This document shows positions 3,361-48,269 of a stretch of DNA of 64,000 nucleotides, one piece after another. The stretch lies in the sequence record NC_007023.1, one strand, 5' to 3'. The notes beneath the pieces were generated by a model. It ran no database searches, was not told where the DNA came from, and worked only from the letters and a program-made list of their open reading frames with translations. How positions within the stretch are numbered: position 1 is the first letter of the stretch; every line of letters starts with the position of its first letter. Made by a program: the position numbers and the translations under genes. The stretch is from Escherichia phage RB43.

Positions 3361-4004
3361 TTAATTAAACTTATTGTACAGCATGAAGTTTACACCGATT
3401 GAACTTAGGGAGGTACAAGCTCGTTCCAGGTCGTCCGCTTCAATTTCGATAACGAATTTCGTTCGTATTAAAGCTGGCGCGACTTCTTCGACAGAAGGTG
3501 TAGTGACTTCTACGACAGGTTTATATACGTTCTTATCATGATCAGGAACATCATCGAGATACTTCAACATTTGATTGATGTATCGTTTATCTGAGTATAC
3601 AAACCGCTTCGCATTCGTCAGAAGAGAACGCATTTTAGAGCGGGTTGTAACTTTTGTACTTTCTTTGTATCCGCTACTTTCGGTGTTAAGAAAGTTTGGA
3701 TTGCTATCCAGCATAATGATAGACGCTAGATTGTTTTTGTGGAAGTATCCCACGAGTTCATTACGAGACTGAGAGAAACAAGCACATAAGCCTCTTCACC
3801 TACCAGATACATTTGTATATGTACTGGCGCTGTAAACATTTTGTTTATGATTTTATGGAATCGAGTGTTTTCCGATAAACTGCGTTGTCTTGTATAACTT
3901 TTGAAAATGTTATCTTTGACAATGGTCGCCATCGTTTCGATGTGGTTTAGCGATTTCCCAAGTAACGGGTTCAGAAAAACTTCTTTTTTCGGTACATAAG
4001 CCAT
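3361..4004 (-). CDS. hypothetical protein, apparently split by a frameshift (ORFs 3361-3753 and 3726-4004 overlap near an A5 run)
   Basis: Two overlapping same-strand ORFs, both frames open across the junction ~3740-3800. Confidence 0.3.
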
Positions 4005-4020
4005 ATTTCAAATTCTCTTT

Positions 4021-4311
4021 TTAGTGCATGAAAGATTTAACGTACTTCAATATTTCTTCACGACATGTGTCAACGCTTGTGTTTTCGGCAATCATAGCAT
4101 GACAAAGTATCTCACCGTCAAGCCAAAACGTCAGCATGTATTGAATATCACGACCTTCTGTTGCTTCCTGATGATACTTGATTTTCGCGAAAGCAGTTTC
4201 GATACTTTCGGTTACTGTCAACATTTCGGAATCACCATCTACAGCAGCCATTTCCCCAGCTTCTTCGCTGAATTCGCTTTCCAGTTCTTCCCAGTATACT
4301 ATCGTTATCAT
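4021..4311 (-). CDS. hypothetical acidic protein (96 aa)
   Basis: minus ORF preferred over mirror plus ORF 4024-4314 (Phe/Cys-rich, atypical). Confidence 0.4.
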   Translation of the reverse strand: MITIVYWEELESEFSEEAGEMAAVDGDSEMLTVTESIETAFAKIKYHQEATEGRDIQYMLTFWLDGEILCHAMIAENTSVDTCREEILKYVKSFMH

Positions 4312-4444
4312 TGATTACCCCAAACATACTTTACATTTGCATAAAGGGCATTCAGCCTCTTTGATGCGTAGACGTTTCGTTGTTGTCTTCTTCTCCGTAT
4401 TGTGATCATATACATGAAGACAACGGAAGCAGATCACCCAACGT

Positions 4445-7984: not shown

Positions 7985-8221
7985 TCAGTATTTGGATTTG
8001 GTTGTTTTGTGTACATTTAAAATGCTTTGGATTTTTTCGGAAATCGTTTGCTGGTCTGGTTCACATCCCAACTTACCGCCAATCGCCTTGTAAAAATCTT
8101 CAACAGAGCTTACGTTGAAATCCGGCATATGGAAACCTAACGAGTACATATGCGGATTGTGGAATTCGTAAACATCCACATTGTATTCGTTAAGATCGAA
8201 ACGTTCAAGATATTTCTTCAA
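7985..8221 (-). CDS. hypothetical protein (78 aa)
   Basis: ORF in operon context. Confidence 0.45.
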   Translation of the reverse strand: MKKYLERFDLNEYNVDVYEFHNPHMYSLGFHMPDFNVSSVEDFYKAIGGKLGCEPDQQTISEKIQSILNVHKTTKSKY

Positions 8222-8361
8222 AGAAAATAAATCGAACGGTAATGGGAGGTGCTGTTCAATCGTTACAGGTTCCCCCAGCTTGTGCGCTTTCAGGGGTTGC
8301 CCCTTTCGCGTATGTCAGTTCTGTTTTCATCAGTGGTGACTCTTTTGATGTATATTCAAGG

Positions 8362-8844
8362 TTACGGAAAGATGTTTCCATGTTCCAGTTGGGTTCCAAT
8401 CGGGCCGCACTCGTCAGAGTACGTAAACTCGTAGATAAACACGCCGTTTTGATTCCCGTACTTCGTGTTGTATTCTTCATACAGCCACATCTTGATCAGA
8501 GCGTCTTTCTCTTCGGTTTCTAAATCGTACCAATCCCGACCATCATATGCAAGCGCAATTTGCGGATTTGAACGATAACGGGTTTCGGCGCTGTCTTCGG
8601 TTTCCCAATCATAACGCTTATCATCATAATACGATTCAAAGCTATTACCCATGTGACCGCCTAAGTCACGGTGAACGTGTTGAACAACTTCTTCGGATGT
8701 CAGCGGAGGATTATAATAACCGCAATTGGGAGAACAATCACCCATCATTTCGCGAAGGTTGTCGATATCAATCGGATCTTTCGGGAACCGGACGATAAAA
8801 CTACTTGATGAACTATTGCTCACAAAACCAGAACGAATTTTCAT
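8362..8844 (-). CDS. hypothetical protein with conserved N-terminal leader MKIRSGFVSNSSSSSF (paralog B)
   Basis: 160 aa; shares 16-aa N-terminus with 4445-4912. Confidence 0.6.
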   Translation of the reverse strand: MKIRSGFVSNSSSSSFIVRFPKDPIDIDNLREMMGDCSPNCGYYNPPLTSEEVVQHVHRDLGGHMGNSFESYYDDKRYDWETEDSAETRYRSNPQIALAYDGRDWYDLETEEKDALIKMWLYEEYNTKYGNQNGVFIYEFTYSDECGPIGTQLEHGNIFP

Positions 8845-9086
8845 TTTAACGCCTCGAATTTGATTTCTTTCAGTGATTGTGTGTGATTATAACAAACCAC
8901 TCCGCGATGTGTTTTCTTTCCGGTAAATCCGTCGAATATGGTGACATAATAATGATAGCAACAATCATCAAGAGGATTGTTTCTGATATAGTCTAACACA
9001 ACGTCCAACGATACGGTAGAGCATACGCAATCAGATTCATTGTCACGACCATCATAGAAATCTTTTTCAATACTATAAATTTTCAC
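8841..9086 (-). CDS. hypothetical Cys-rich protein (81 aa, GTG start)
   Basis: ORF; ATGA-type overlap with downstream gene. Confidence 0.4.
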   Translation of the reverse strand: MKIYSIEKDFYDGRDNESDCVCSTVSLDVVLDYIRNNPLDDCCYHYYVTIFDGFTGKKTHRGVVCYNHTQSLKEIKFEALK

Positions 9087-9352
9087 GATACTTGCCTCAT
9101 GTTAGACATAATTTCTTCAAAAGTCACGGGGAATTCTTTGGGTTCGCAATCGTCATCCCATTCTTCTCGATATCCGTTAATTTTGCTAACCGCGATCATC
9201 TTATCGTTTTTCCCATACAGTCACTTCAATACGATCACCAAGATAGGGAAAGCTGGGGTGCTTGTTGATTACATCAACACACGTTTGAAGAGATTCAGAT
9301 ACTTGAATTACTTCACCAAAATCATAATCGCCGTGACGCGACAGAACATAAA

Positions 9353-9544
9353 TCATAAAACCCTCGCCCACCAAATAATGTCAGTAATTACGTCATAGAT
9401 CATGAGAGGGAACACTGTAAGAGCAATACACAAAATAAACACAGTTGCCCACAACCCCAAAACTTTACGACCCGATAAAACACATCCAATAACAGCAATC
9501 ATTCCTACTACTGCAATGATCAACATAATGATAGATGCAACCAT
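9353..9544 (-). CDS. small membrane protein (63 aa)
   Basis: two hydrophobic helices. Confidence 0.45.
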   Translation of the reverse strand: MVASIIMLIIAVVGMIAVIGCVLSGRKVLGLWATVFILCIALTVFPLMIYDVITDIIWWARVL

Positions 9545-9873: not shown

Positions 9874-9887
9874 GATGTGGTTCCTTT

Positions 9888-10358
9888 TCAGTTTCGTTTC
9901 GATAAAGTTAAGGTATCACTGTTCTTACGAAGATGCAAACACTTTTTTGAAGAATTTGTTTCCGGTCTTTCTTTGTATGGGCGCATGGTCAACCGCTTAC
10001 CGTCCAATACTGTTGGTTTTCCATCCAGTTCAATCAGGATAAAGTTGCCTTTGCGATACTTCAACACGCCCTGGCTTGCCGACCATTCATCGTTATCCCA
10101 GTGGTTGTAATGCCATTCAACAACGGTATCGATTGGTATTTCTGGTTGATTTCTCATATTTGCTTTCCTTCGTTCTGATGCTTCTTTCAATTGTCGTATT
10201 TGTGGTATCAACTGTTGTGGTGGAACAGTATCTTCCCGTTTCAATGCCTTTCGAACTTGATCAACAAACCATTCGTATTTCGGACGGCGGTTAAGTTCTT
10301 CCCTTAGTCGGGCATTCTCTTGTTCGGCAATGCTTGCGCGTTTTCTGTAATCGGTCAT
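9888..10358 (-). CDS. hypothetical protein (156 aa), translationally coupled to methyltransferase
   Basis: 4-nt overlap with dcm-like gene. Confidence 0.45.
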   Translation of the reverse strand: MTDYRKRASIAEQENARLREELNRRPKYEWFVDQVRKALKREDTVPPQQLIPQIRQLKEASERRKANMRNQPEIPIDTVVEWHYNHWDNDEWSASQGVLKYRKGNFILIELDGKPTVLDGKRLTMRPYKERPETNSSKKCLHLRKNSDTLTLSKRN

Positions 10359-12019: not shown

Positions 12020-12253
12020 TTATGCTTCAAAATCAATTTCGTCGATCTTGTAAGACTCTTCATCGATATCAGCCCACAGAGTGACTTTAACCGTTTTACG
12101 GTCTTCGTACATGTCACGACCATCATAGCCGCCCGTGTACTCGCTGTGCGTCTGTTCATCCACTTCTAAACGCAGACTATCGCGCATGATTGGACAACAG
12201 CCTGTCCAGCGTAACAGAATCTGGGTGCTGTTCTGTGCCACCAACTCGAACAT
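12020..12253 (-). CDS. hypothetical protein (77 aa)
   Basis: ORF. Confidence 0.4.
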   Translation of the reverse strand: MFELVAQNSTQILLRWTGCCPIMRDSLRLEVDEQTHSEYTGGYDGRDMYEDRKTVKVTLWADIDEESYKIDEIDFEA

Positions 12254-12280
12254 CTTTCAGGTGTAAAATAATATCGCTCA

Positions 12281-12559
12281 TTAGTAGAACTTTCCATATG
12301 TGTTGAAATTGATACTTTCGTGGTTACGTTCATTGATCGTGATTTCATAATCGTAATCTTCATTAGTAACCGCGCGGTCGTGTTTGATAACGTTCACGTC
12401 ATAAACGCGGGATAACGCATGATACAAAGAATCACGGATCTTTTCAGCAATCTTCGCGGGTTCGCTATACATATTGAGCATATCAGCAACAATACCTTCT
12501 ACTCGCTGAATATCTCGCTGTTCGATGTATCCTACGTACAGGCTTACGTCTTTAATCAT
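12281..12559 (-). CDS. hypothetical protein (92 aa)
   Basis: ORF coupled to upstream nucleotidyltransferase. Confidence 0.45.
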   Translation of the reverse strand: MIKDVSLYVGYIEQRDIQRVEGIVADMLNMYSEPAKIAEKIRDSLYHALSRVYDVNVIKHDRAVTNEDYDYEITINERNHESINFNTYGKFY

Positions 12560-13943: not shown

Positions 13944-14179
13944 CGTTTTGTTTTATCACAATAGAATACTGGCAATTTGGACAGGACAGGAGTCACCACA
14001 TCTTCACCAGTTTTCGTGTTATGCGTCATTTCGATTGTCAGCGAACGACCAGGCACGGGTTTCACAATATCCAGTTCCATGATCTCCCGATTACCTTTTG
14101 TGTTGATTTCTGCAACATAGTAATCGTTCCCGTTGATGTTAACAACATCACCCATAATTACGCTTCTGCTGTGTTTCAT
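13928..14179 (-). CDS. hypothetical protein (83 aa)
   Basis: ORF. Confidence 0.45.
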   Translation of the reverse strand: MKHSRSVIMGDVVNINGNDYYVAEINTKGNREIMELDIVKPVPGRSLTIEMTHNTKTGEDVVTPVLSKLPVFYCDKTKRWKMK

Positions 14180-14565
14180 TTGTTAATAAACCTTAACGTA
14201 ACGTGCAGGGATTCTAACACTCGTGCGTCAGTACCGTCAATAATCATCATTCCGATAAATTCTTTAGAGCTAACGGAATACATGCGACATAACAGGGAAC
14301 CATCTTTCGCGATATATTCAACGATATACTCACGGCGTGATGATTTGAACGAATCACCGACCATGACCGGACGTTCGACATTCTGGCGTTTTTTGGCTGT
14401 ATAACACAACTCGTTTTCGCCGTTTGGTGCGCAATCTTTACTTCCGATCGACATATCCGTTACAGTAACAGAATTCACAGAACCGCCGATCAGTAAGCTG
14501 GGTTCGCCAGCACCTACTTTCATGATTAGTGTCGAACGGTTTGCAACGGTTTCAGTCACAAACAC
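14176..14565 (-). CDS. hypothetical protein (129 aa, GTG start; possible upstream extension)
   Basis: ORF; 32-aa upstream ORF in another frame suggests possible frameshift. Confidence 0.4.
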   Translation of the reverse strand: MFVTETVANRSTLIMKVGAGEPSLLIGGSVNSVTVTDMSIGSKDCAPNGENELCYTAKKRQNVERPVMVGDSFKSSRREYIVEYIAKDGSLLCRMYSVSSKEFIGMMIIDGTDARVLESLHVTLRFINK

Positions 14566-14716
14566 GTAGCACTGTGGATTCGTTTTCTTTGGCGATTGAC
14601 TGCAAAATGAATTTGGTCTTCTCAGGCGTTCTCGAATGTCCGATTTAAAACACGATCACCGATCGTCAATGTTGTGGTTGAATCGACATCTTCGGTAGTA
14701 CGAATAATTGCTGTTT

Positions 14717-14986
14717 TCATGATAATTTCCTCTCAAATTCTTCATCAGATTTCCAGTACACGTTAAAGTTACGGCAATCGTGATCAGAAGTCAACGTATA
14801 TTTTTCATTTGTTTTTTCATCGGTGATAACCATCGTTTCATTCTCGATCGAGTCAACACCGTACACAAACACTTTGTCACCGCGTTTATTCAGGAACGCA
14901 TCACCTGTTTCAATCAACTGCCAGCAACTAACTGGCAACCCGCCCGAACAGATCGGACGGTTTACTAAACAGTAAGGATGTTTCAT
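14717..14986 (-). CDS. hypothetical protein (89 aa)
   Basis: ORF. Confidence 0.45.
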   Translation of the reverse strand: MKHPYCLVNRPICSGGLPVSCWQLIETGDAFLNKRGDKVFVYGVDSIENETMVITDEKTNEKYTLTSDHDCRNFNVYWKSDEEFERKLS

Positions 14987-15171: not shown

Positions 15172-15240
15172 GATTATCTCCTTTCGTTTCAGTACCCCTA
15201 ATATAACAAAAGCCCTACACGAATGCAAGGGCTTTTTCAA
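15172..15240 (-). promoter_or_regulatory. PeSL-like element B (TTGCAT-17-TATATT with hairpin AGCCCT...AGGGCT)
   Basis: -35 at 15223-15228, -10 at 15200-15205 (minus strand). Confidence 0.55.
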
Positions 15241-15333: not shown

Positions 15334-16392
15334 TTAGATACCTGTAAATGCTACGACAATCTGATAGTGGTCATCGAAGAATTCCCCTTGTCGTTGTACG
15401 ACCTCATGTAAGGGCATCCAGAACGCGTCTAACGCATCGTCAGAACCGCCCATAATACGTGGTAAACTTCCATCATTGTTAGGTTCTAACTTGATGTATT
15501 GCGCCACAGTCGGTTTTGAGAAGTGTACAGAACGCTTCGGATGATCGAACAGCATCGAATTGCGGATTGAACCACGAATAACCTTTTCAGGAACCTTGAT
15601 CCGAACCTCTTCGAGCAGTTCGCGGATCGCACAATCCAGGAACGTTTCATTTGCGTTTTTGTGTCCACCTGGCAGGGCTAGTGCGCCTTTTCCTGGTGCA
15701 AACTTACGACGAATTACCAGCAGGTGATTGTTGCACACAACCACGTTATCACCCGTGCAGCAGTTTAGCGCTTCTGGGTATGGGTAATTTTTGAATTTCT
15801 CCAATTCACTTTCCCATTTTTCGAATTCGTAGTACAGTCGCCAAAATGTATCCGTCATCATCCATGAATTGATATAACTCACAGTAGACGGAGGAACATA
15901 ACGAGATAGTTTCTTGTCCCATCCATTCTTATGCAAAAAGGATGGTTGGTCGTAAATCGGTCGCAGATAAATCTTCCCATCAACCTTAACCGGATCTACC
16001 GGAACATGAGTCCATCCAAACGCTTTCAGCCAGTATGAATCAGCATCTTTTTCGTAACCATAGATCGCGATGTTATCGCCTTTGGTTTCGTTGATTGCTG
16101 TACGAACAGAAGTTTTCCATTTTTCTTCGTTGTAAAGATAATCAGGAATATGAGCAAACTTAACACGACAAACATCTTCGTATTTGTATTCAGTCATCAG
16201 CCACGAAAAGATCATTCTTTCGCGTTCGTTCGCGGTCAGAGGATTTAAAACGTTGGGGTATGCGTAGGCAGAACCCAGGAGGATGTAAACGGTCTCCGAC
16301 TCTTCCAGTGCTTTACGCACCATCGCCGCATGACCATTATGGAAAGGTTGGAATCTGCCAATCACGACAGCTTTATCAAATTTGTGTTTCAT
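15334..16392 (-). CDS. bifunctional nicotinamide-mononucleotide adenylyltransferase / Nudix hydrolase (NadM/NatV-like)
   Basis: GRFQPFHNGH (HxGH nucleotidyltransferase motif) plus Nudix box GGHKNANETFLDCAIRELLEEV; start likely ATG 16390-16392 with GGAG RBS. Confidence 0.85.
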   Translation of the reverse strand: MKHKFDKAVVIGRFQPFHNGHAAMVRKALEESETVYILLGSAYAYPNVLNPLTANERERMIFSWLMTEYKYEDVCRVKFAHIPDYLYNEEKWKTSVRTAINETKGDNIAIYGYEKDADSYWLKAFGWTHVPVDPVKVDGKIYLRPIYDQPSFLHKNGWDKKLSRYVPPSTVSYINSWMMTDTFWRLYYEFEKWESELEKFKNYPYPEALNCCTGDNVVVCNNHLLVIRRKFAPGKGALALPGGHKNANETFLDCAIRELLEEVRIKVPEKVIRGSIRNSMLFDHPKRSVHFSKPTVAQYIKLEPNNDGSLPRIMGGSDDALDAFWMPLHEVVQRQGEFFDDHYQIVVAFTGI

Positions 16393-16515: not shown

Positions 16516-16588
16516 TTGTAGTATTCTCGTTTTAAGAGTCAAGCCCCCAGAACGGGGGCTTTAAAATCTTATTTACGAGAATCGAAAA

Positions 16589-17494
16589 TCACTTTGCCAG
16601 CGTAATCAGAACCCATGACAGTTTGAGGTACACCACCTTGTAGCGGGTAGAGTAGTTCATCTGTACATCCAGTTCTTTCCAGCGGATCATTTCTGGTGTA
16701 ATGGTGCGCTGCAACACGGCGTTCGCTTCTGCTTCTTTACGGGCCGCATACAGTTTAGCATCAGCATCACGTTCGTTTGCGAGTGCTTCATTTTCACGCG
16801 CCTGACGATTTGCTTCTGCCTGTTTTACCTGTTGTTGAGAAGTTTGCTCAACCTTCGCCAGTTCAGCACGAGCGGCGTTAACCTGTTCTTCACGGATCTT
16901 CGTGTTAGTTACCTGTTCCATGATAACATCTGGCAGGGTAATATCCTGCAAGAATACCTGTTTCACGGTGTAACCATACGGTCGCGCATACTCTTCAACT
17001 TCCTGCTGAATCGCAGTTTGCAACTGGTTCTGGATCTTTGCGTCGAACAGATCCTGTGCTTTCGGAACTGATTTACCGAATTCGCGAACAGTGGACAGCA
17101 ATTTTTCGGTTACGTATTTATCCAGAGCTTGTTCCTGGTCGCCAGCGTTGATACGGTTAATCGGTGCTTTGTTACCGTCGAATTGCAACATCACGGTCAT
17201 GTCAACAGTCGATTTAAATTTATCCTGGGACGGAACCTGCAACTTGTCGAATTTCTTCGCGATATCTTTCGTACTGAAAGTATCGAAGTCAGCCAGTGGG
17301 TTTACGATATGGAAACCAGGCATGACAGGTTTCGGAGAAACTTTACCCATAAAGGTCTGGGTTTTGACCGTACCGTCCTGTACGATGGTAAAGGAGTTCG
17401 GAACCAGCCACAGTGCAGCAACTACGCCCAGAGCGATCAGAGTGGTTTTCTTCGGGTTGTCACGGATAGTATTAATATTCATAGTATGTCTCAT
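16589..17494 (-). CDS. SPFH/band-7 (prohibitin/HflK/C-like) membrane protein
   Basis: N-terminal TM helix, SPFH-like core, C-terminal Ala/Gln/Glu-rich coiled coil. Confidence 0.65.
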   Translation of the reverse strand: MRHTMNINTIRDNPKKTTLIALGVVAALWLVPNSFTIVQDGTVKTQTFMGKVSPKPVMPGFHIVNPLADFDTFSTKDIAKKFDKLQVPSQDKFKSTVDMTVMLQFDGNKAPINRINAGDQEQALDKYVTEKLLSTVREFGKSVPKAQDLFDAKIQNQLQTAIQQEVEEYARPYGYTVKQVFLQDITLPDVIMEQVTNTKIREEQVNAARAELAKVEQTSQQQVKQAEANRQARENEALANERDADAKLYAARKEAEANAVLQRTITPEMIRWKELDVQMNYSTRYKVVYLKLSWVLITLAK

Positions 17495-17562: not shown

Positions 17563-17947
17563 TTAAGAAAGTTTTGTCAGCTTGTAAATCGTTTGATAGC
17601 ACAAGCCTTTGATCTCGTCCAGTATGTTCTTCAATGAACTGTCTACTGATTCGTAGATATCGTTGGCTTCGGTGGCTATTTTACGGAGATACGCTACCGT
17701 GTCAAGCACATTTTCAACTTTTAATACGGGGTTTATAACGTCCTGTAATGCCTATATGGATTTCGGTGAATTTGTCTACCAAATCCTGCATATCTTCGTA
17801 AAAACCCTCGTATGCCTTATGTTGCGAATATGACCCCGTCATAAAATGTGCGCTGTGCATATACGTAACAGACATCAGGCATGTGCCAATAAAGGCATCT
17901 ATTTTACTTGTATTATCGCGCTCGACGATTTCGTTAAACGTTTGCAT
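17563..17947 (-). CDS. hypothetical protein with apparent frameshift near 17750 (weak ferritin-like 4-helix guess)
   Basis: ORF 17714-17947 continues in another frame as ALQDVINPVLKVENVLDTVAYLRKIATEANDIYESVDSSLKNILDEIKGLCYQTIYKLTKLS. Confidence 0.3.
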
Positions 17948-18347: not shown

Positions 18348-18741
18348 TTATGTTATATCGTACCAGCATAAACCACGTTCATAAGCACGGATCTTATTGG
18401 CATTGTGAATGTTTTCATCCCATCCAATCACACCCGCTTTCATGCGTTTCAGTTCCTGGCGCATTTTAACGCGTACTTTTGAATCAATCTTTTTCTTTGC
18501 GATCGAAAGCATCGCGGGAGATATCACCATGCGCCTTGTTGCCGTCACGATTCAAATTGTTATCGAACCGGATATATGCGCAACCTGATTTATGTTTCCA
18601 GTTGGTTGTGTACCAACGAAGACCATCAGGATCGCGCCCGTGTTGTGCATAATACTCAGAATATGCCTTTGTCTCTTCGATCTGTTCCAGAGAAGAAAGG
18701 TCACGGATAGGAACATATTTGTTACGGTAAGTACGGCTCAT
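18348..18741 (-). CDS. hypothetical protein, apparently split by frameshift in an A-run (~18488-18500)
   Basis: ORFs 18484-18741 and 18348-18548 overlap at AAAGAAAAAGA homopolymer. Confidence 0.4.
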
Positions 18742-18771: not shown

Positions 18772-19353
18772 TTAGCAATCTACGCCAACTTTATCAAGCA
18801 CTTTTTCATGATAATGTTTCCGGCATAACGAAACATATTTGTCTTCGGCTCCGATTTCGACTTGCTCCCCTTCGGTTACGAAGTTGCCTTGTGCGTCGAT
18901 ACGCGCGACCGTGGTTGCTTTGCGCCCACAGTGACACATTCCCCGTAGTTCTCGGATCTCGTCAGCCCATGCGAGCAACCAGTAAGAACCCTCGAACAGA
19001 TTCAACTGAAAGTCGGTACGCAGCCCGTAACACATTACAGGAATTTCGAGTTCATCAACAACGCGACACAGATCGAAAACGTTTTTCTTCGAAAGGAACT
19101 GTGCTTCGTCAACAAAAATACAGGAAATATTATTCCGGCGTTGAATGTCCCAGAACAGATCCATGCTGGGTGAAATCAGTTCACATGATGCGCTTAACCC
19201 TACGCGAGAAGACACCGTATGTGAACGAGTATCAAGCATAGGCTTGTAAATCACTACGTTCATACCACGTTCTTTGTAGTTGTATGCGTCGGTCAGCAGT
19301 CGTGCGCTTTTACCAGCATTCATTGATGCGTAATGATAATACAGTTTAGCCAT
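18772..19353 (-). CDS. tk: thymidine kinase
   Basis: P-loop MNAGKS, FVDEAQF, C-terminal Zn motif CHCGRKA...C. Confidence 0.9.
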   Translation of the reverse strand: MAKLYYHYASMNAGKSARLLTDAYNYKERGMNVVIYKPMLDTRSHTVSSRVGLSASCELISPSMDLFWDIQRRNNISCIFVDEAQFLSKKNVFDLCRVVDELEIPVMCYGLRTDFQLNLFEGSYWLLAWADEIRELRGMCHCGRKATTVARIDAQGNFVTEGEQVEIGAEDKYVSLCRKHYHEKVLDKVGVDC

Positions 19354-19529
19354 TTGCAGCGTCCTTGATCTCTTTCTTCACGAACAGAATGATATCTTCG
19401 ATTTTGTTTTCGATGTAGCACATGTTTGACATTACGCGCTTCTGTATCATCATCGGTCGCGTAGTCCATGTATAATTCACCCAGTTCTTTCAGTTTGTGC
19501 GTCAACAGCTTTTCTTCTTGCGGTCTCAT
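19320..19529 (-). CDS. hypothetical protein (69 aa)
   Basis: ORF. Confidence 0.35.
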   Translation of the reverse strand: MRPQEEKLLTHKLKELGELYMDYATDDDTEARNVKHVLHRKQNRRYHSVREERDQGRCKWLNCIIITHQ

Positions 19530-19711
19530 TCGCGAGATTCCCTTCTTTCATCGTCGATTAGCTGGTCGATGAAATCAACGATGTCATCAAACCAATCTAC
19601 GGCTTCTTGAGCAGAAACCGAACCTTTCCCACTACCACTCATAAAGCGTTCGCGAGCGTCAGCAAACTTTTCGAGTTTTGAATACAGCTTTTCTTTATGT
19701 TCCTGGATCAT
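19526..19711 (-). CDS. hypothetical acidic protein (61 aa)
   Basis: ORF; ATGA coupling. Confidence 0.4.
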   Translation of the reverse strand: MIQEHKEKLYSKLEKFADARERFMSGSGKGSVSAQEAVDWFDDIVDFIDQLIDDERRESRE

Positions 19712-20200
19712 GATAAATCTACCGTTTTCATGTTAACGTAGGGATCGAAATGTACCACGATGATTGGATAGTCGCCAGTGGCCTTATCAATGATGTCATA
19801 GATGCGCATCCAATCGCCCCCAGCAAGCCCCGCACCAATAAGAGGGGTAACGATAGGCAATTGAACAGGACACGCCTTAGCGCGTTCTACAGCAGATTTG
19901 AAGCATGATTCAATCGCATCATAATCGACTTGTGGGCCTTCACCCCAAAATTTGTATTGGGTGTACGCGTTAAACAGAAGTTTGTTTCCGTCCTGATAAA
20001 CGGAGTTACGCCCCAACTTAGATTGATTGCCCTTCATCGTCATTGCGTCTTCTTTAAACGCACCAGGGATCTTTTTCTTCACTTCTTTGGCGATACCCGC
20101 GCCCATGTTACCAGAAACCAGTTACCACCCCATGAATTAGGTGTACATCGCGATTAAGGAACAGTTCAACCGCGTTACCTTTGATTTCTTTAATGATCAT
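19708..20200 (-). CDS. macro-domain (ADP-ribose-binding/processing) protein, apparent frameshift near 20107-20120
   Basis: Upstream frame MIIKEIKGNAVELFLNRDVHLIHGV... joins MGAGIAKEV..., reconstructing an HGxN(C)xxxMGAGIA macro-like N-terminus. Confidence 0.45.
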
Positions 20201-25827: not shown

Positions 25828-25893
25828 ACATACCTCTTTATGAAAATACCCTATGGGTTACACAGGGTATTTACGGTTTAAGAGGCGCAACGA

Positions 25894-28432: not shown

Positions 28433-28715
28433 ATTTGAGAGTATTCATATAACCGATGATGTATTCAACAACAGCATCGCGTTCTTCTTCACATTCATAT
28501 CCACCCCACGTTACCGACTGATTATGTGCTAAATGAAACGTAATCGCAGGTTTCCATGTTTTGTTAATACAAGGAATTTTAGCGTCGGTCTGAATCCATA
28601 AAACGTGCTCTACGTTAACAGGATAGTTAACACATTCCACCTCTGCGTTACTATTGTATACAAAATGGTCTGCGTATAAACGTTTATACGATTTAATTTC
28701 TGACACAATAATCAT
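28422..28715 (-). CDS. hypothetical protein (97 aa)
   Basis: ORF; ATGA overlap with upstream gene's reconstructed stop. Confidence 0.45.
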   Translation of the reverse strand: MIIVSEIKSYKRLYADHFVYNSNAEVECVNYPVNVEHVLWIQTDAKIPCINKTWKPAITFHLAHNQSVTWGGYECEEERDAVVEYIIGYMNTLKYGG

Positions 28716-32875: not shown

Positions 32876-33172
32876 TTATTTCGATTCTTTTGGCAATTGT
32901 TCGATAATCGATTGAGTTTGTTTAAGTTCTTCACTCAAATTATTTCGATATGTAGCAAGTTCGCGGATTCTCGCGTTCGCATATGTGATGACCCTTTCCT
33001 CAGTCACCGCATAATGATAACCACCATTAGAAGTAAGTTCCAAACGGTAATTATCCCCCGTTAGGTACTTTGATATGCTGGTACTGTAAAAATACCTTTA
33101 CTGCTTCCAGAAGATTATAGTCTTCTTTACCGATAATAAACTGGTTCGGTTCCATTTCTTCAATATCAGGAT
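32876..33172 (-). CDS. hypothetical protein, apparent frameshift at C5/G5 run (~33051-33055)
   Basis: 41-aa ORF MNPDIEEM...VPNGG continues in another frame as DNYRLELTSNGGYHYAVTEERVITYANARIRELATYRNNLSEELKQTQSIIEQLPKESK. Confidence 0.3.
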
Positions 33173-33709
33173 TCATTTTGTAGCCTTATACATTTCAATT
33201 ACGCGTTTCATGTGCTCTTGTGATTGAGGCACACCAGCGAAGTTCAGTTTAATAAAGAATTCAAGACGATCTTTTTTATTGCATTCATCCAGCCCCAGGG
33301 CAGGTAATGACAGGTTTTCAAAGGCGCGTTGTTCGTGTCGCTGCATATCGTCCCAGAACAGACGGGAACCATCCGGCATAGGAATCCCTATCTCACCTTC
33401 ATAAACCTTGATGATCGTCGTCAATCGTTGTTTGCCGTCGATTACTTCGACCCAGTGAGATTCGTTAAACTCGCTATCAACAGCGATCGCGATAATACCG
33501 CAAGGGAACCCAGTGATCAAAGTTGTCAAGAATTCATCTTGTTCTTTCTGCGTCCACACATAAGGGCGCTGATAGGATGGATTCAGATCCAGATCCTTAT
33601 TTTTCCACCAGTGAATATAACTTCCAACAATGATCGCATGTTCACGGCTTCTGAAAGTTATCTGTTCGCGAATCCGGTTTCTTGCCGGAATATCATCTTT
33701 ATTAGACAT
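33173..33709 (-). CDS. DUF262 / ParB-like nuclease-fold domain protein
   Basis: 178 aa; YQRPYVW and IDGKQRLTT motifs typical of DUF262 (GmrSD N-terminal domain family). Confidence 0.6.
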   Translation of the reverse strand: MSNKDDIPARNRIREQITFRSREHAIIVGSYIHWWKNKDLDLNPSYQRPYVWTQKEQDEFLTTLITGFPCGIIAIAVDSEFNESHWVEVIDGKQRLTTIIKVYEGEIGIPMPDGSRLFWDDMQRHEQRAFENLSLPALGLDECNKKDRLEFFIKLNFAGVPQSQEHMKRVIEMYKATK

Positions 33710-34325: not shown

Positions 34326-34708
34326 TTTGCAATAATGCCGAAAGCAAGCAAACCACCGCGATGATCGTTATCCGCACTCTCCTGGAAGAAAAAGTATTCA
34401 TCACCGGAAATACTGGTAACACGAACACCTTCTTTCAGATACGGTAACAGATACAGAGGGATCAGCATGATTTCTAAATCATCGCTCCATTTACGGAACC
34501 CCAGATTTTTCATTTCTTCCATCGTCAGGTCATTAGGATCGACGGGTTCAAAATCAGGTGATGCCTGGAGTCGTCCAGGAAGTGAACGTATATGGTTGAG
34601 AGCAAATTCTTCTCCCCATGACTGATACGCGATAGGTTCAGCGGCACGGGTTGCAGTAGCCAACAGAATCATTTGGCAGATTTGGAAAGTCGTTGCTTTT
34701 GTTTTCAT
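34322..34708 (-). CDS. hypothetical protein (128 aa; possible signal peptide)
   Basis: ORF. Confidence 0.45.
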   Translation of the reverse strand: MKTKATTFQICQMILLATATRAAEPIAYQSWGEEFALNHIRSLPGRLQASPDFEPVDPNDLTMEEMKNLGFRKWSDDLEIMLIPLYLLPYLKEGVRVTSISGDEYFFFQESADNDHRGGLLAFGIIAK

Positions 34709-35118
34709 GATGTATATCCCACAAGTTTAGTAAGGAGGTGTCCCATAGTCTTACGCGCATGATCGCGGATTTCGCTATAAGGAACATATTTGAAACCGTC
34801 CATTTCTGTAATGGTTCGACCGTTCTTCACGAACGTTGACGCACAGAAACATTTATCGGCTTCGGGGTAATTATCGCCTTTGTAGATGAACAATGCAAGT
34901 TTTTTCTTACTTGTATAATCCAAAACACCCAGGCTGATCAGTTGGTCAGGACGCACTTCGAAACCAGTTTCTTCGAAGCATTCGCGAATAGCAGCATCAT
35001 ATGGGCTTTCACCCTTTTCTACATGCCCCTTTGGAATATCCCAGTGGGGCGTTTCGGTAGCGTGACCCATTAGAATACTGCCGTTATTCAGAAAGAGAAT
35101 ACCAGCAGATAATTCCAT
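34705..35118 (-). CDS. Nudix hydrolase (MutT/NudE-like)
   Basis: Nudix box GHVEKGESPYDAAIRECFEETGFEV; position comparable to T4 nudE region as I recall it. Confidence 0.85.
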   Translation of the reverse strand: MELSAGILFLNNGSILMGHATETPHWDIPKGHVEKGESPYDAAIRECFEETGFEVRPDQLISLGVLDYTSKKKLALFIYKGDNYPEADKCFCASTFVKNGRTITEMDGFKYVPYSEIRDHARKTMGHLLTKLVGYTS

Positions 35119-35354
35119 TATGCGTTTCCTGAACTAAATTTCTCGTCGTATGCGGAAAGCGCATTATCTGCACGTTTTTTCGCTTCTGTATGTCCACGGC
35201 TATCATTGATACCGCGACGATACATTTCGATCCAGAAAGAACGTCGAGTATCTTCGTTCATTTCGGTCAGTTTAATATCGCGAAATACGTTTTGTTCTTT
35301 GATCAGTCGTGCCAGTTCAGCATCTTGTTCAGTTCTTGATAGTACAGTGTTCAT
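35118..35354 (-). CDS. hypothetical protein (78 aa)
   Basis: ORF. Confidence 0.45.
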   Translation of the reverse strand: MNTVLSRTEQDAELARLIKEQNVFRDIKLTEMNEDTRRSFWIEMYRRGINDSRGHTEAKKRADNALSAYDEKFSSGNA

Positions 35355-35375
35355 AGTTCACCTATTTCTTTCAGT

Positions 35376-35603
35376 TCAGTTTTCAGTTTTTCGAGGAGTG
35401 GATTGGTATTGGATTTGTGAATCACTCAACCGCGCATAGAACAGAGTACGGGTTTCGTTGATTTCAGACAATACCTCTTGATCGAGTTTTTCGATACCCG
35501 CACCGAATGCCATTTGAAACAGAGTTTCAGCAGTTTGCGCGAATCCGTGTTGAAACATTCGATCGAATTTTGGTTCGTATTGTATTAAACGGACACTAGC
35601 CAT
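35376..35603 (-). CDS. hypothetical protein (~75 aa)
   Basis: Start moved to internal Met (MASVRL) to limit overlap. Confidence 0.35.
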   Translation of the reverse strand: MASVRLIQYEPKFDRMFQHGFAQTAETLFQMAFGAGIEKLDQEVLSEINETRTLFYARLSDSQIQYQSTPRKTEN

Positions 35604-38422: not shown

Positions 38423-39085
38423 TTAAAAGTTAATTACACTAAGCACGTTAGCTTTCAATTCACTAAGCGTACCATTATTTAGGATGATAATATCAGTTGG
38501 TTGAGGGTTCAAACCTTTCTCAGTTGAATGGCTGTCATCCTCTCCGGTTTTCTCGTTCGATGAATACGAACTTAGGCCCCGAACTTGCTCAGGTATTTTA
38601 TATTCATGTTTTTGTCGAACATCCGTAATGATAAAGTTATCTTTATCGGAACGCAACATTTTCTTCAATACAATATCGACCCATACAATATCGTTATGAT
38701 TACACACGATATCAGTACCGAAAACCTGCATCAGTCGGCGTATTGTCCAGGGCTGTGTATTGGTTCTACAGATTTCATATACTGCTGTATCAACAGCACC
38801 AAGCCAATAGCCCCGCTTCTCTAACCGCTTAACCCCGAAGTCGAAGACTTTTAGTGCATCTTCGTTAGACATCAACAGGGGCGCTTCTCGATCGCCTGTA
38901 TAGAATGGGTTGGTTTTAGTCAGTTCACGCAAGTAACGGTTTCCCGATTCCTTCATCCCGTCCGACAGAATACTTTTGATCTCGTCAGCGAGCGCGAACG
39001 CTTCGACGTTTTGATAGTCATCTAAAACGAACTGGGTAGCGGTGTCTTTACCCGTTCGTTTTTTACCACAAATGCAATAAATCAT
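38423..39085 (-). CDS. 1: deoxynucleoside monophosphate kinase (gp1)
   Basis: P-loop CICGKKRTGKDT; size and synteny with gp3. Confidence 0.85.
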   Translation of the reverse strand: MIYCICGKKRTGKDTATQFVLDDYQNVEAFALADEIKSILSDGMKESGNRYLRELTKTNPFYTGDREAPLLMSNEDALKVFDFGVKRLEKRGYWLGAVDTAVYEICRTNTQPWTIRRLMQVFGTDIVCNHNDIVWVDIVLKKMLRSDKDNFIITDVRQKHEYKIPEQVRGLSSYSSNEKTGEDDSHSTEKGLNPQPTDIIILNNGTLSELKANVLSVINF

Positions 39086-44258: not shown

Positions 44259-46331
44259 ATGATCATGGATTATGAATCAATAATTGATGGTATTATGCAA
44301 GATTTTCAGCATCCGTGTGATGCTGAAATACCTGCTGGATCGTACAGGCGTATTATCTGGCAGGGACACACAGAAGATTACCCCGCTGTTGGGGTAGAAT
44401 GGGATACAGAAATCATTCCGATCGGGACGCATCTTTACACGCAATCCCCGTTTGGACAGAAAAGCGATCCGCTTCCGGTTGTCAACTCCCCAGGTACAGA
44501 TCCGGGTACTGGGGAAGCAACAGGGATTCTCGTTGCTAAAATTGGTTATTATTTCGCTACTCAACAAGAAATTGATGACTATATCACCTCTATCGGGGCT
44601 ACTAAGCTCGCAGGTAATGATTGGTATGGTGCGGATCTGACAAAAGCGAACCTGTTCAAAAACCCAGGCGAACTTGCAATGTACAAGGTCGAGAACTCAG
44701 GCGGTTATCTACTGACTTCTGGCCCACAATGCGATCAGCGTATCAGACAGGCGTATAATAGCGACACAGGCGCGTTTACAAGCGTTGATTACTATTGGAA
44801 TGGTAATCGTATTGCCTACATGAAACATGACGACACAGGGGCGCACAATTGCAAATACGTGGGTATGGTGGTTAACACCAACGCAGACACAAGCATTCCC
44901 CCTGTACCTCCGGCTATGCCGTCAATTTACGGGGCATTGCCTAGCGAAATTTCAATGATGCGCTCCGGTTTGGGTTGTCTTCCTGCAACGGTAGGTTTTG
45001 CGTACACGAATATCAGTGATGCAATGCTATCCGCATGGAACGAAACGCGCAAGTCGTTTAAGCTCGTGTTTGATATGCTTACGGGTATCACTAAAACGGG
45101 TTCCGGTGGTATCTCCACGATGTACGATGGTTTGTCTATCGCAATGGAGGAAATCACAGCGGGTGCTCTTGCGTTGTCACAGCAAGCATGGCAAGCCGCA
45201 ATTAAGGTGTTCAAAGATATTATGTCTTCTGCGTTAAACATCGTAGGTGGTGCGTGGAACATGATAATGAGTTTTTTACCAACTGTTACGATTCTGGGTG
45301 TTTCAATAAACATCTATGATCTGATTTTCGGTGATAACTCAGTGCAGACACTGAAAGATTCATTCCAGGCGATCATTGATGCTGGTACAGAAACCTATGA
45401 GAACGTCATAAACGCAATATACAGCGCTATAGGCAGTGCATACAATTATACCGTTGAATATGTCAAGGCTGGCGCTCGCGACCTCGTGGATGCTTGCAGT
45501 ACGCTTTTTGACTGGTGTATTACCATGTTTCAAAATGGTTGTGTTGCTCTGGTGGATCTGTATGGGCGAATAATGCAAATCTGGGCTATGCCTCCAACGG
45601 TTCCAAACCCTTTATGGGCTGCTGTTCTGGCTATCCGTAACATTATGATGCAGATCAAGCCGCTTGATGTGATCCTGGGTGGAAACTTCCCTGGGTTTAC
45701 GGCAATGGATTTGTACCAAATGGCACAGGAGAAGGTGAAAGAGTTTATCGATCAGTCGTATGCGCAAATACGCGTGTATTATGAACAGGTGAAGGATCTG
45801 ACTAGCACGTTGACTACACAGACACAAGAAAGGGATGCGATTAAACGCAAGTTCGATCAATACCTTAACTGGATGTGGGGCGCTGTTACAGATGCTGCTA
45901 CCGCTGCATATCAGGCTGCATTAGATGCTGCAAACGAGGCAATCGAGCAAACCAAAGCGCTTATCGCTGGCGTTAAAGCACAGATAGCCGCTCTACAGGA
46001 CGCGATGAAAGATACGTACAGCCTTGCGATGGAAGAACTTAAAAAACTTCCTTTGATGCAGCAGATTAATGAATTCTTAGGCTTCTGTGGGATTGCTTTT
46101 GATGATCTGCTGAAAACCTATGATAACGCGGTTACTGGGGCGAAATCATTATATAAAAACTTTGTTGACAGTTCCCGATCGTTTAAGGATACATGCAAAG
46201 TCATATATAACCAGATATGCACACTTGCTCTAAGTAAGGTGACTCAATACGTGAATAAACTGTTGTCTTTAATCGGACTCGCGATCACTTTTGCGTCAAT
46301 TAATATCTGCGTCCCTATGATTCAACTATAA
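44259..46331 (+). CDS. large hypothetical protein (690 aa) between gp5 and gp6; hydrophobic helices and coiled coil
   Basis: Starts 3 nt after gp5 stop; beta-rich N-terminus, central and C-terminal hydrophobic helices; occupies the slot I recall holding T4 5.1-5.4. Confidence 0.7.
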   Translation: MIMDYESIIDGIMQDFQHPCDAEIPAGSYRRIIWQGHTEDYPAVGVEWDTEIIPIGTHLYTQSPFGQKSDPLPVVNSPGTDPGTGEATGILVAKIGYYFATQQEIDDYITSIGATKLAGNDWYGADLTKANLFKNPGELAMYKVENSGGYLLTSGPQCDQRIRQAYNSDTGAFTSVDYYWNGNRIAYMKHDDTGAHNCKYVGMVVNTNADTSIPPVPPAMPSIYGALPSEISMMRSGLGCLPATVGFAYTNISDAMLSAWNETRKSFKLVFDMLTGITKTGSGGISTMYDGLSIAMEEITAGALALSQQAWQAAIKVFKDIMSSALNIVGGAWNMIMSFLPTVTILGVSINIYDLIFGDNSVQTLKDSFQAIIDAGTETYENVINAIYSAIGSAYNYTVEYVKAGARDLVDACSTLFDWCITMFQNGCVALVDLYGRIMQIWAMPPTVPNPLWAAVLAIRNIMMQIKPLDVILGGNFPGFTAMDLYQMAQEKVKEFIDQSYAQIRVYYEQVKDLTSTLTTQTQERDAIKRKFDQYLNWMWGAVTDAATAAYQAALDAANEAIEQTKALIAGVKAQIAALQDAMKDTYSLAMEELKKLPLMQQINEFLGFCGIAFDDLLKTYDNAVTGAKSLYKNFVDSSRSFKDTCKVIYNQICTLALSKVTQYVNKLLSLIGLAITFASINICVPMIQL

Positions 46332-46333
46332 AT
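46326..46333 (+). promoter_or_regulatory. T4-type late promoter (TATAAATA) for gp6
   Basis: Exact TATAAATA followed by RBS AAGAGGGG and ATG 46355. Confidence 0.6.
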
Positions 46334-46354
46334 ACCCGATAAAGAGGGGTAATA

Positions 46355-48269
46355 ATGGCTACCGTAAAGAAACAAATTAATCAGATCCCCGATATTTTTG
46401 TCGGGGCTACTTTTGATGAAATCAAATCGGAGTTTGATTAACTGGCTCCGAGGTCAGGACGAATTCAAAGATTATGATTTCTCTGGCTCGCGTATGAACG
46501 TGCTTGTTGACCTGCTGTCTTACGCGACATTGTATATTCAACAGATGGGTAACAGTGCTCTATTCGAATCATTTATTCGAACTGCGGCGCTTCGTAGTTC
46601 TGTTGTGCAACATGCTCAGGATTTTGGTTATATGCCGGATTCCCGTACTGCTGCAAACACTTCGATTCTGATTACAGCAAATAACCCACTGAACCCAACT
46701 TCAATTCGTATTCCTCGTGGTACGAAATTCATTGGTACAGTAAAAGATACGAACAGCTTCCCGTTTGTTGTGTCTGATGACGTTGTAATCGTTCGTGATA
46801 AAGATAACAACTATGTGTCGATGCTGAATATCGTACAGGGGCGTTTGGTTCGTACCGAAGTAATCTATGATGGTTCTACTATCCTGATCCGAGATCCGAA
46901 CATTGACCGTAGTCAGGTTCGAGTGACGATCAACGGCGCACAGTGGGACGATTGGACAAACGAAAGTATCGTTAACGCAACGGGCGCAAGTACCGTTTTC
47001 TATATGCGTGAAACGGTAGACGGACATACAGAGGTTTATTTCGGTGAAGGTGAGACAAGTCAACAGGTCGCGGGTGGTGCTCTTACCGCTGACTATATCG
47101 GGGGCTTGAAACCTGCAAACGGTTCTGTCGTTGTTATTGAATACATTTCAACCAACGGCGAAGAAGCAAACGGTGCTGAAAACTTTGTTTACGTGGATAC
47201 GTTGACAAACATCAGCATTACAAGTATTGTTGAGAACCCGACCAACTCTGCTGATTATGTCGGTGCTGATGGTGGTGGTGAACCGGAAGACATTGAACGA
47301 ATTCGAGAATTAGCCCCGATCATGCGTGAAACGCAGCGTCGTTGTGTTACTGCATCGGATTACGAATCATTCCTGTCGCATCGTTTCGGCTCTGTGATTC
47401 AGGCGGTTCAGTGCTTTACCGATAGTGAAAAACCTGGATATGCGTTCATCGCGGTTAAACCGAAATCAGGGTTGCGCCTAACCTCAGTACAGAAAGAGGA
47501 TATGCAAAACTATCTGGCTAAGTATAACCTTGCGACAATTACGCCGTCGATTCTCGACCCTAACTATCTGTATATCGTACAAAGCATTAAAGTCACGTAT
47601 GATATCAGTAAGTTAATCGAGTCAGAAGAATGGCTACGTGGTCAGGTTATCAATGAAATTGACAAGTATTACACTGATAACGTTGAAATTTTCAACAGAT
47701 CATTCAGTAAATCGAAGATGTTGACTTATGTCGATAACGCTGATGTGTCAATCATTGGTTCCTCTGCGACGATTAGCCTGTTGCGTGAACTGGATAACTA
47801 TTACAGTGCGCCGATGTCTGGTATTCACTTCTTAAACCAGGTTGCGTCAAGATCTGTTATTTCTAACGGGTTCAAATATACCAACGCAGATGATGATTCA
47901 TATGATGTGCGCTATGCGTCAACTGATATGGATACATCGACCGGACGTGCTAAGATTGTAATTGGCCCGTTTAAAGATGGTGATATTGCGATAACTCCGT
48001 ATGCTGGTAACGATTTTGATAAATACCCAGGGGTGACAGACAGAACGAAATACTATGAGGTTGGCTATATCGAACATTATAGCGATTTCATCAGCTTCGA
48101 TCTGGGTGTGCTTAACGTCCCAGCAGAACGCTTTAGCGCTGCATATATCGAACTGACTGCAAAACCATTGGAAGAAACCATTTTTACTCGTGATGGTTCT
48201 CTGATTGTATTTGAAAATGACCTTCGTCCTCAGTATACCACGCTGACGATGAATCCAATCAGTCAATAA
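46355..48269 (+). CDS. 6: baseplate wedge subunit gp6 (one-base frameshift near 46430)
   Basis: N-terminus ...IPDIFVGATFDEIKS in one frame, continues ...LINWLRGQDEFKDYDFSGSR... in next; matches recalled T4 gp6; C-terminus FTRDGSLIVFENDLRPQY. Confidence 0.85.

What the first reader, a model, noticed from the sequence alone, without database searches (positions are those of the whole stretch)
3361..46440. Multiple single-base frameshifts, including in essential gp6
gp6 is split near 46430 by an extra base in a T-run, yet both halves match T4 gp6. Similar frame jumps occur in the macro gene (~20107-20120), the Fe-S gene (A5 at ~28888), 18348-18741 (A-run), 32876-33172 (C5 run), 17563-17947 and possibly 3361-4004. 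A frameshift in an essential baseplate gene argues for homopolymer sequencing/assembly errors, but some early-gene cases could be real pseudogenes or slippage sites.
Basis: seen in the sequence. Interest (0 to 1): 0.45.

Follow-up and report, generated by a model that had tools for sequence, protein, structure and literature searches.

The report
Sequencing errors in published RB43 genome
The broken genes are real in this sequence, but they are single-base reading errors in the 2005 reference record of phage RB43, not phage biology: a later re-sequencing of the same phage and three related phages have every one of these genes intact.

Summary
The window is the published RB43 genome (NC_007023, 180,500 bp). 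Against the Illumina re-sequenced RB43-GVA (HE858210.2) it differs by 35 single-base indels and only 7 substitutions in 64 kb. Seventeen genes are net frameshifted, including gp6. Four more (NMN adenylyltransferase/Nudix, endolysin-like, NudE, gp1 dNMP kinase) carry compensating indels that scramble 2-15 residues. Three indels are intergenic. At every indel the independent relatives that still align there (GuL6, RB16, Miller) carry the RB43-GVA reading. The intact proteins align end to end across the indel codons. Real divergence in this group gives about 87 substitutions per one-base gap; here the ratio is 0.2. The indels mostly miscount short runs of one base (33 of 35), cluster tightly, and 34 of 35 lie in the early-gene block, which the sequencing authors say was under-represented in shotgun libraries and closed by PCR. 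Verdict: a record artefact, not recoding or pseudogenes. The truncated products, including a 617-aa gp6, sit in NCBI and UniProt. Two substitutions (gp8 R316Q, MobE stop) are genuine RB43-GVA changes.

The parts
3361..4004 (-). Gene split into RB43ORF113c and ORF114c; intact form is 214 aa. One A is missing at 3775 (A3 instead of A4).
   Evidence: RB16 and Miller encode the RB43-GVA protein at 100% identity in one frame.
7985..8330 (-). 114-aa hypothetical gene, frameshifted by an extra G at 8293 (G4 instead of G3).
8330..8844 (-). RB43ORF121c, deposited as 160 aa; intact form is 170 aa. Extra T at 8343 and extra A at 8368.
9083..9356 (-). 90-aa hypothetical gene, frameshifted by an extra T at 9207.
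   Evidence: At DNA level only Miller is informative. At protein level GuL6, RB16 and Miller all span the site.
9879..9879 (.). Intergenic extra G, 6 nt upstream of the start codon of the gene at 9586-9873.
9925..10358 (-). 144-aa hypothetical gene, frameshifted near its 3' end by a missing T at 9954.
12020..12281 (-). 87-aa hypothetical gene. T missing at 12189 and at 12204 (net -2).
14176..14720 (-). 180-aa hypothetical gene. Extra G at 14569 (not in a run) and extra T at 14644 (net +2).
15215..15215 (.). Intergenic missing T inside the hairpin of a repeated promoter/terminator cassette. The RB43-GVA reading gives a perfect GCCCTT/AAGGGC stem.
15334..16392 (-). NMN adenylyltransferase/Nudix gene (352 aa). 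Extra G at 15940 and missing T at 15973 cancel out, leaving about 10 residues scrambled.
16569..17482 (-). SPFH/Band 7 gene (RB43ORF139c), deposited as 297 aa; intact form is 304 aa. T missing at 16637.
17563..17947 (-). rI.-1 (DUF5856), deposited as 77 aa; intact form is 127 aa. Extra G at 17728 (G4 instead of G3).
18348..18741 (-). RB43ORF143c, deposited as 85 aa; intact form is 130 aa. Extra G at 18516.
19346..19529 (-). 60-aa hypothetical gene, frameshifted by an extra T at 19425.
19708..20200 (-). Macro-domain gene (Tk.4), deposited as 132 aa; intact form is 162 aa. Each of four C runs within 17 bp has gained one C (20112, 20118, 20125, 20128). There is also an A/G substitution at 20016.
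24965..25422 (-). RB43ORF158c, deposited as 130 aa; intact form is 152 aa. A missing at 25084.
25432..25837 (-). Endolysin-like gene (131 aa). Extra T at 25812 and missing A at 25816 cancel out, changing 2 residues. A further extra T at 25837 lies 10 nt upstream of the start codon.
28712..29858 (-). Radical SAM/SPASM gene (RB43ORF169c), deposited as 340 aa; intact form is 381 aa. Extra A at 28880 (A5 instead of A4), inside the SPASM domain. C/A substitution at 29628.
32876..33176 (-). RB43ORF181c, deposited as 41 aa; intact form is 99 aa. The window reads CCCCC at 33055-33059 where RB43-GVA and GuL6 read CACC.
34705..35118 (-). NudE Nudix hydrolase (137 aa). Missing A at 34999 and extra T at 35007 cancel out, changing 2 residues.
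35351..35603 (-). 83-aa hypothetical gene, frameshifted by an extra G at 35395.
38423..39085 (-). gp1 dNMP kinase. Three extra bases (38548 T, 38575 G, 38596 T) restore the frame, giving 220 aa instead of 219 with about 15 residues scrambled.
46355..48269 (+). gp6 baseplate wedge gene. Extra G at 46432 (codon 26). The intact protein is 637 aa. The record annotates a 617-aa product from a false ATG at 46416.

Best explanation
The window is the 2005-era Sanger shotgun record of coliphage RB43 (NC_007023, from the Tulane T4-like genome project). The frame breaks are base-calling or assembly errors in that record, not features of the phage.

What is shown: 35 single bases were added (25) or dropped (10). 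Nearly all are miscounts of short runs of one base. They come in tight clusters, and 34 of 35 lie in the early-gene block on the minus strand. The true sequence at all 35 sites is the one in RB43-GVA (HE858210.2). With it, all 21 affected genes, including gp6 (637 aa), are intact. Annotating the erroneous sequence produced truncated or split proteins that are now in NCBI and UniProt.

What is inferred: the block was read from few, poor reads, because its genes clone badly in E. coli and had to be closed by PCR.
For: 1. Identity of the record. Window-specific truncated products match AAX78xxx/YP_239xxx proteins of 'Escherichia phage RB43' exactly, on a 180,500-bp contig. Nolan 2006 gives NC_007023 as that record.

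2. Same phage, re-sequenced. RB43-GVA, sequenced by Illumina, differs from the window by 35 one-base indels and 7 substitutions over 64 kb. Perrody 2012 reports at least 107 nucleotide differences genome-wide.

3. Which version is right. At every indel site, each relative that still aligns there (GuL6, RB16, Miller) scores higher with the RB43-GVA reading, and none supports the window. All 21 RB43-GVA proteins align across the indel codons in a single frame in the relatives. Intact gp6 aligns continuously to T4 gp6 in the solved baseplate, residues 6-637, E = 1e-245. Metagenome contigs from three samples encode the exact intact macro protein and intact neighbours.

4. Mutation spectrum. Window versus RB43-GVA gives 0.2 substitutions per one-base indel. 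RB43-GVA versus GuL6 gives 87.

5. Error signature. 33 of 35 indels change the length of an existing run, against 43% expected by chance. Four C runs within 17 bp each gained one C. Plus/minus pairs lie 4-33 bp apart. There are 14 neighbour gaps of 100 bp or less against 1.8 expected. 34 of 35 indels lie in the minus-strand early block (P = 1e-6).

6. Sequencing history. The authors state that regions of novel ORFs were under-represented in shotgun plasmid libraries and were found only during PCR gap closure.

7. Internal control. At 52377 and 61807 the window carries the ancestral base and RB43-GVA the derived one. The comparison can therefore go either way, yet it never favours the window at an indel.

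8. Viability. From established T4 genetics (my own knowledge), gene 6 is an essential baseplate wedge gene, so a plaque-forming stock should not carry this frameshift.
Against: No raw reads, traces or quality values of NC_007023 could be examined, so the errors are inferred from comparison, not seen directly.

RB43-GVA is a separately propagated lineage, kept apart for about 20 years. It does carry a few genuine differences: the gp38 Q100 change, gp8 R316Q and the MobE stop. Some of the five window-derived substitutions (20016, 29628, 30998, 33057, 40687) could therefore be real stock differences rather than errors.

Perrody et al. report the differences but do not call them errors.

Some sites rest on one informative relative at DNA level: 9207, 14644, 19425, the four macro-gene sites and 33055.

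Whether the cause was base-calling, mutated clones or mutated PCR products cannot be separated here.
Confidence: 0.95

Rival explanations
1. The frameshifts are genuine mutations of the RB43 stock that was sequenced at Tulane. That stock would be a lab lineage that lost many accessory early genes (real pseudogenes), while RB43-GVA kept them.
For: The two lineages were propagated apart for about 20 years and differ in host range. Two substitutions are real lineage differences. Most affected genes are accessory early genes of unknown function.
Against: The ratio of 35 indels to 5 window-derived substitutions is the reverse of any natural spectrum seen here, which is 87:1 the other way. The set includes gp6, and it scrambles gp1 and NudE through paired indels a few bases apart, which mutation does not produce. 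Four adjacent C runs each gained one base. The indels cluster within tens of bases. A phage with gp6 cut at codon 28 should not form plaques (T4 genetics, my own knowledge).
Confidence: 0.03
2. The frameshifts are mutations selected or introduced during cloning or PCR. Early genes toxic to E. coli survived in plasmid libraries only as frameshifted clones, or Taq errors arose during gap closure, and the assembly faithfully reports those molecules.
For: Nolan 2006 says these regions were under-represented in plasmid libraries, were likely deleterious to the host, and were closed by PCR. 34 of 35 indels lie in that block.
Against: Compensating pairs that restore the frame (25812/25816, 34999/35007, 15940/15973, and the three in gp1) inactivate nothing, so selection does not explain them. 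Three indels are intergenic. Polymerase errors are mostly substitutions. The four-fold C doubling looks like a trace artefact. This is also an artefact explanation, so it differs from the best one only in the step at which the error arose.
Confidence: 0.1
3. Some sites are programmed recoding: ribosomal frameshifting, or transcriptional slippage at runs of one base, that yields the full-length protein from a split gene.
For: Most sites lie in short runs of one base.
Against: The same phage re-sequenced, and all relatives, have a plain uninterrupted ORF at every site, so the split is not conserved anywhere. The window's runs are 5 bases or fewer except one T7, too short for transcriptional slippage. 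The gp6 site (GGAGTTTGATTAA) is neither a run nor a known slippery motif. Both halves keep homology simply because the error is one base in an otherwise correct sequence.
Confidence: 0.01

Closest known systems
Published difference between RB43-GVA (HE858210/HE981739) and the reference RB43 genome (Perrody et al. 2012, PLoS Genet, PMC3486835)
   Same: The same two sequences are compared. The paper states at least 107 nucleotide differences genome-wide, 106 of them shared by both RB43-GVA isolates. The 42 differences in this window are part of that set.
   Different: In the text read, the paper does not break the differences down, does not say which record is right, and discusses only the gp38 change. 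This analysis shows that 35 of the 42 are one-base indels private to the reference record, and lists the genes they break.
Low-coverage Sanger shotgun errors in hard-to-clone regions of T4-like genomes (Nolan et al. 2006, Virol J, PMC1524935)
   Same: Same project and same record. The authors report that novel-ORF regions were under-represented in plasmid libraries and closed by PCR. That is the block holding 34 of the 35 indels.
   Different: The paper treats the RB43 sequence as finished, unlike five genomes it calls draft, and does not mention residual errors.
Programmed ribosomal frameshifting in phage genes (for example the tail assembly chaperone G/GT type)
   Same: Two adjacent ORFs in different frames that together match one protein.
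   Different: In real cases the split and the slippery site are conserved across relatives. Here every relative, and the same phage re-sequenced, has a single ORF.

Membership tests
Sequence-record artefact (base-calling or assembly error) | The variant is private to one record and absent from an independent re-sequencing of the same organism. | tested here: met
   All 35 indels are absent from both RB43-GVA records, HE858210.2 and HE981739.1.
Sequence-record artefact (base-calling or assembly error) | Independent relatives carry the alternative reading, which restores full-length conserved ORFs. | tested here: met
   GuL6, RB16 and Miller favour the RB43-GVA reading at every informative site. 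All 21 proteins align across the indel codons in one frame.
Sequence-record artefact (base-calling or assembly error) | A non-biological spectrum: indels far outnumber substitutions, miscount runs, and cluster locally. | tested here: met
   35 indels against 7 substitutions, where real divergence gives 34 against 2950. 33 of 35 indels are in runs. 14 neighbour gaps are 100 bp or less against 1.8 expected.
Sequence-record artefact (base-calling or assembly error) | Low quality or low coverage at the sites in the original reads. | not testable with these tools
   No traces or assembly files are available. The only support is the authors' remark on under-represented regions.
Genuine pseudogenes (gene decay) | The disruption is reproducible in independent sequencing of the lineage and accompanied by other signs of relaxed selection. 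| tested here: not met
   The disruptions are absent in RB43-GVA. Flanking sequence is otherwise identical, with only 5 window-derived substitutions in 64 kb. An essential gene, gp6, is included.
Programmed ribosomal frameshift | The split-ORF arrangement and the slippery site are conserved in related genomes. | tested here: not met
   Relatives have single ORFs at all sites. The gp6 site has no run and no known slippery motif.
Transcriptional slippage | A long A or T run (about 8 or more) at the frame junction. | tested here: not met
   Run lengths in the window are 1-5, except one T7 at 25806-25812 that is paired with a compensating indel 4 bp away.

The most novel reading that the evidence does not exclude
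A few of the window-private changes might be real features of the Tulane RB43 lineage. The candidates are some of the five substitutions, or one or two indels in dispensable early genes. Two laboratory lineages of one phage would then differ in which accessory early genes are functional.
Probability: 0.04. Interest if true: 0.2.

Novelty: not a real feature. Interest (0 to 1): 0.08.

Why it matters
There is no new biology here. The practical value is curation. The RefSeq/GenBank reference for RB43, the type record of its species, carries at least 35 one-base errors in these 64 kb.

From that record, 17 truncated or split proteins and 4 locally scrambled ones have entered NCBI nr and UniProt. 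Among those checked by exact match are gp6 as 617 aa with a false N-terminus (Q56BJ2), gp1 dNMP kinase, the radical SAM protein and Tk.4/macro. NudE is scrambled in the record's sequence, but its deposited product was not looked up.

Anyone using RB43 for comparative genomics, for counting pseudogenes or recoding, or as a training or benchmark sequence should use HE858210.2 instead.

The case also shows a cheap test. Compare the indel-to-substitution ratio and the direction of change against a few relatives. That separates record errors from real frameshifts without needing reads.

Tried and rejected
1. A reference-free screen for split genes. All stop-to-stop segments of GuL6, RB16 and Miller were run by tblastn against the window and RB43-GVA, looking for adjacent matches in different frames. 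It recovered the window-only breaks. It was also noisy at gene junctions and in non-coding frames. The cases shared by the window and RB43-GVA were junction or antisense effects, and none was a clear frameshift in RB43-GVA. It was not used as primary evidence.

2. A literature search for an explicit statement that the RB43 reference has frameshift errors. None was found. The only hit, a spanin survey, merely lists RB43.

3. The 'phages' collection does not hold the window's own record. Only the two RB43-GVA records match at 99% or better. The source was therefore identified through exact protein look-ups.

4. Programmed frameshifting at the gp6 site was considered. It was dropped after reading the site (no run, no slippery motif) and seeing the plain ORF in RB43-GVA and GuL6.

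5. Long-homopolymer (pyrosequencing-type) error was considered. It was set aside because the true runs are mostly 1-4 bases and the record comes from plasmid shotgun sequencing.


Full report
**What the window is.** The window matches two records of 'Enterobacteria phage RB43, isolate RB43-GVA' (HE858210.2, HE981739.1) at about 99.9-100% identity. It matches other Pseudotevenvirus phages (GuL6 97%, Miller 91%, RB16 89%) over its whole length. The window is not RB43-GVA itself. Exact protein look-ups show that ORFs peculiar to the window are deposited as proteins of 'Escherichia phage RB43' (AAX78xxx/YP_239xxx) on a 180,500-bp contig. That contig is the reference RB43 genome, NC_007023, published by the Tulane T4-like genome project (Nolan et al. 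2006, PMC1524935).

**Checking the observation.** gp6 begins at ATG 46355 and runs into a TAA after 28 codons. The rest of gp6 continues in another frame to 48269. Aligned with RB43-GVA and GuL6, the window has one extra base, a G at 46432 (GGA[G]TTTG).

A base-by-base comparison of all 64,000 bases with RB43-GVA gives 35 single-base indels and 7 substitutions. In the window 25 bases are extra and 10 are missing.

|---|---|
| 3361-4004 | one A missing at 3775 |
| 17563-17947 | extra G at 17728 |
| 18348-18741 | extra G at 18516, in a G-run, not an A-run |
| macro gene | four extra C at 20112, 20118, 20125, 20128 |
| Fe-S gene | extra A at 28880 (A5 where RB43-GVA has A4) |
| 32876-33172 | CCCCC at 33055-33059 where RB43-GVA reads CACC |
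| gp6 | extra G at 46432 |

**Consequences for genes.**
- Seventeen genes are net frameshifted. These are 3361-4004, 7985-8330, 8330-8844, 9083-9356, 9925-10358, 12020-12281, 14176-14720, SPFH/Band 7 at 16569-17482, rI.-1 at 17563-17947, 18348-18741, 19346-19529, macro at 19708-20200, 24965-25422, radical SAM/SPASM at 28712-29858, 32876-33176, 35351-35603 and gp6 at 46355-48269.
- Four genes carry indels that cancel out and scramble only a short stretch. These are NMN adenylyltransferase/Nudix (15940, 15973), the endolysin-like gene (25812, 25816), NudE (34999, 35007) and gp1 dNMP kinase (38548, 38575, 38596).
- Three indels are intergenic (9879, 15215, 25837).

Pfam confirms the identities of the intact versions: five gp6 domains, Macro, SPASM, DUF5856, Band_7 and DNMK.

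**Which version is right.** For each of the 42 differences, 91-bp fragments of both versions were aligned to GuL6, RB16 and Miller. These are independent isolates from other hosts, laboratories and years. At every indel, each relative that still aligns there scores higher with the RB43-GVA reading, and none supports the window.

The protein-level check agrees. All 21 RB43-GVA gene products align in one frame across the indel codons in GuL6, and in RB16 and/or Miller for 20 of the 21. The macro gene has no match in either of those two. Intact gp6 aligns continuously with T4 gp6 of the solved baseplate structures, residues 6-637, E = 1e-245, straight across codon 26.

Metagenome contigs from three unrelated samples encode the exact 162-aa macro protein, with intact neighbours. 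In the protein-cluster look-ups, each truncated form occurs on one contig only, the 180,500-bp record. The full-length forms occur on many.

**Why this is error and not biology.** Four lines of evidence point the same way.

1. The spectrum is wrong for evolution. Window versus RB43-GVA gives 7 substitutions to 35 one-base indels. RB43-GVA versus GuL6 gives 2950 to 34, and the RB16 and Miller comparisons are similar.
2. The indels look like peak miscounts. 33 of 35 change the length of an existing run of one base, against 43% expected for random insertions. The true runs are short, 1-4 bases in 31 cases. In the macro gene, each of four C runs within 17 bp gained exactly one C. Several plus/minus pairs lie 4-33 bp apart.
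3. The indels are clustered. Fourteen neighbour distances are 100 bp or less against 1.8 expected, and none of 20,000 permutations reached 14. Thirty-four of 35 lie in the minus-strand early-gene block, which is 62% of the window (P = 1e-6). The sequencing authors wrote that regions of novel ORFs were under-represented in the shotgun plasmid libraries and were found only during PCR gap closure. I infer that the block was covered thinly and by poorer reads.
4. gp6 is an essential baseplate wedge protein in T4 (established genetics, my own knowledge). A plaque-forming stock should not carry this frameshift.

**An internal control.** Two substitutions go the other way. At 52377 (gp8 codon 316, CGA Arg) GuL6 agrees with the window, and RB43-GVA has CAA Gln. 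At 61807 the window, Miller and PF-CE2 have TGC (Cys). RB43-GVA has TGA, which truncates the MobE/NUMOD3 homing endonuclease between gp14 and gp15 from 220 to 197 aa. These are genuine RB43-GVA-lineage changes, alongside the gp38 Q100 change reported in the literature. The comparison is therefore able to side with the window, yet it never does so at an indel.

**Rivals.**
- *Real mutations of the Tulane stock.* Not formally excluded without reads. This would need 35 frameshifting events against 5 substitutions, paired compensating indels, and a lethal gp6 lesion. I give it about 3%.
- *Clone-selected or PCR-introduced mutations.* This is still an artefact. It fits the location of the indels but not the compensating pairs, the intergenic sites or the four-fold C doubling.
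- *Programmed recoding.* Excluded in practice. No relative, and not the same phage re-sequenced, has a split gene at any site. The gp6 site is neither a run nor a slippery motif.

**What was already known.** Perrody et al. 2012 re-sequenced RB43-GVA and noted at least 107 nucleotide differences from the published genome. In the text I read they do not characterise them or say which record is right. I found no paper stating that the reference RB43 genes are frameshifted by error.

**Verdict.** The finding is a correct observation with a correct main interpretation. The thing observed is a defect of a public record, not a feature of the phage. Its value is for curation. The 617-aa 'gp6' (AAX78728.1/Q56BJ2, false start at 46416) and the other truncated or scrambled products should be replaced by the HE858210.2 versions. 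Those confirmed as deposited are the 132-aa Tk.4, the 340-aa radical SAM protein, the 77-aa RI.-1, ORF113c/114c, ORF121c, ORF139c, ORF143c, ORF158c, ORF181c and the scrambled gp1.

Noticed in passing
window 3302-3365, 15182-15245, 21861-21916, 31335-31422, 32791-32891, 36860-36937 (minus strand): A repeated regulatory cassette sits upstream of several early genes. It consists of a GC-rich hairpin, a TATATT-like -10 element, and a conserved leader that runs into the ATG. Two copies are 85% identical over 78 nt. It resembles the promoter-early stem-loop (PeSL) cassettes described for T4-type phages (recalled from memory, not checked in the literature here). The intergenic indel at 15215 lies in the hairpin of one copy.
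   Followed up: partly
window 61214-61876 (+), site 61807: A MobE/NUMOD3 homing endonuclease lies between gp14 and gp15. It is intact in the window (220 aa, as in Miller and PF-CE2). In RB43-GVA a TGC-to-TGA change truncates it to 197 aa. This is a genuine RB43-GVA-lineage mutation, the reverse of the pattern at the indels. GuL6 lacks this gene altogether.
   Followed up: yes
window 52377 (gp8, 51431-52423): gp8 codon 316 is CGA (Arg) in the window and GuL6 but CAA (Gln) in RB43-GVA. This is a real amino-acid change in the RB43-GVA lineage.
   Followed up: partly
window 44259-46331 (+): A conserved 690-aa ORF of unknown function lies between gp5 and gp6, where T4 has the small genes 5.1-5.4. 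In relatives it is annotated variously as hypothetical or as 'baseplate hub structural protein'. RB16 has a Mob-like HNH endonuclease inserted between it and gp6.
   Followed up: no
window 57187-59475 (+): The gene in the wac (whisker/fibritin) position encodes 762 aa, much longer than the 487 aa of T4 fibritin (the T4 length is from memory).
   Followed up: no
window 4853-4929 and 8785-8861: A 77-nt direct repeat, 74% identical, spans two gene junctions in the early block. It may reflect paralogous gene ends.
   Followed up: no
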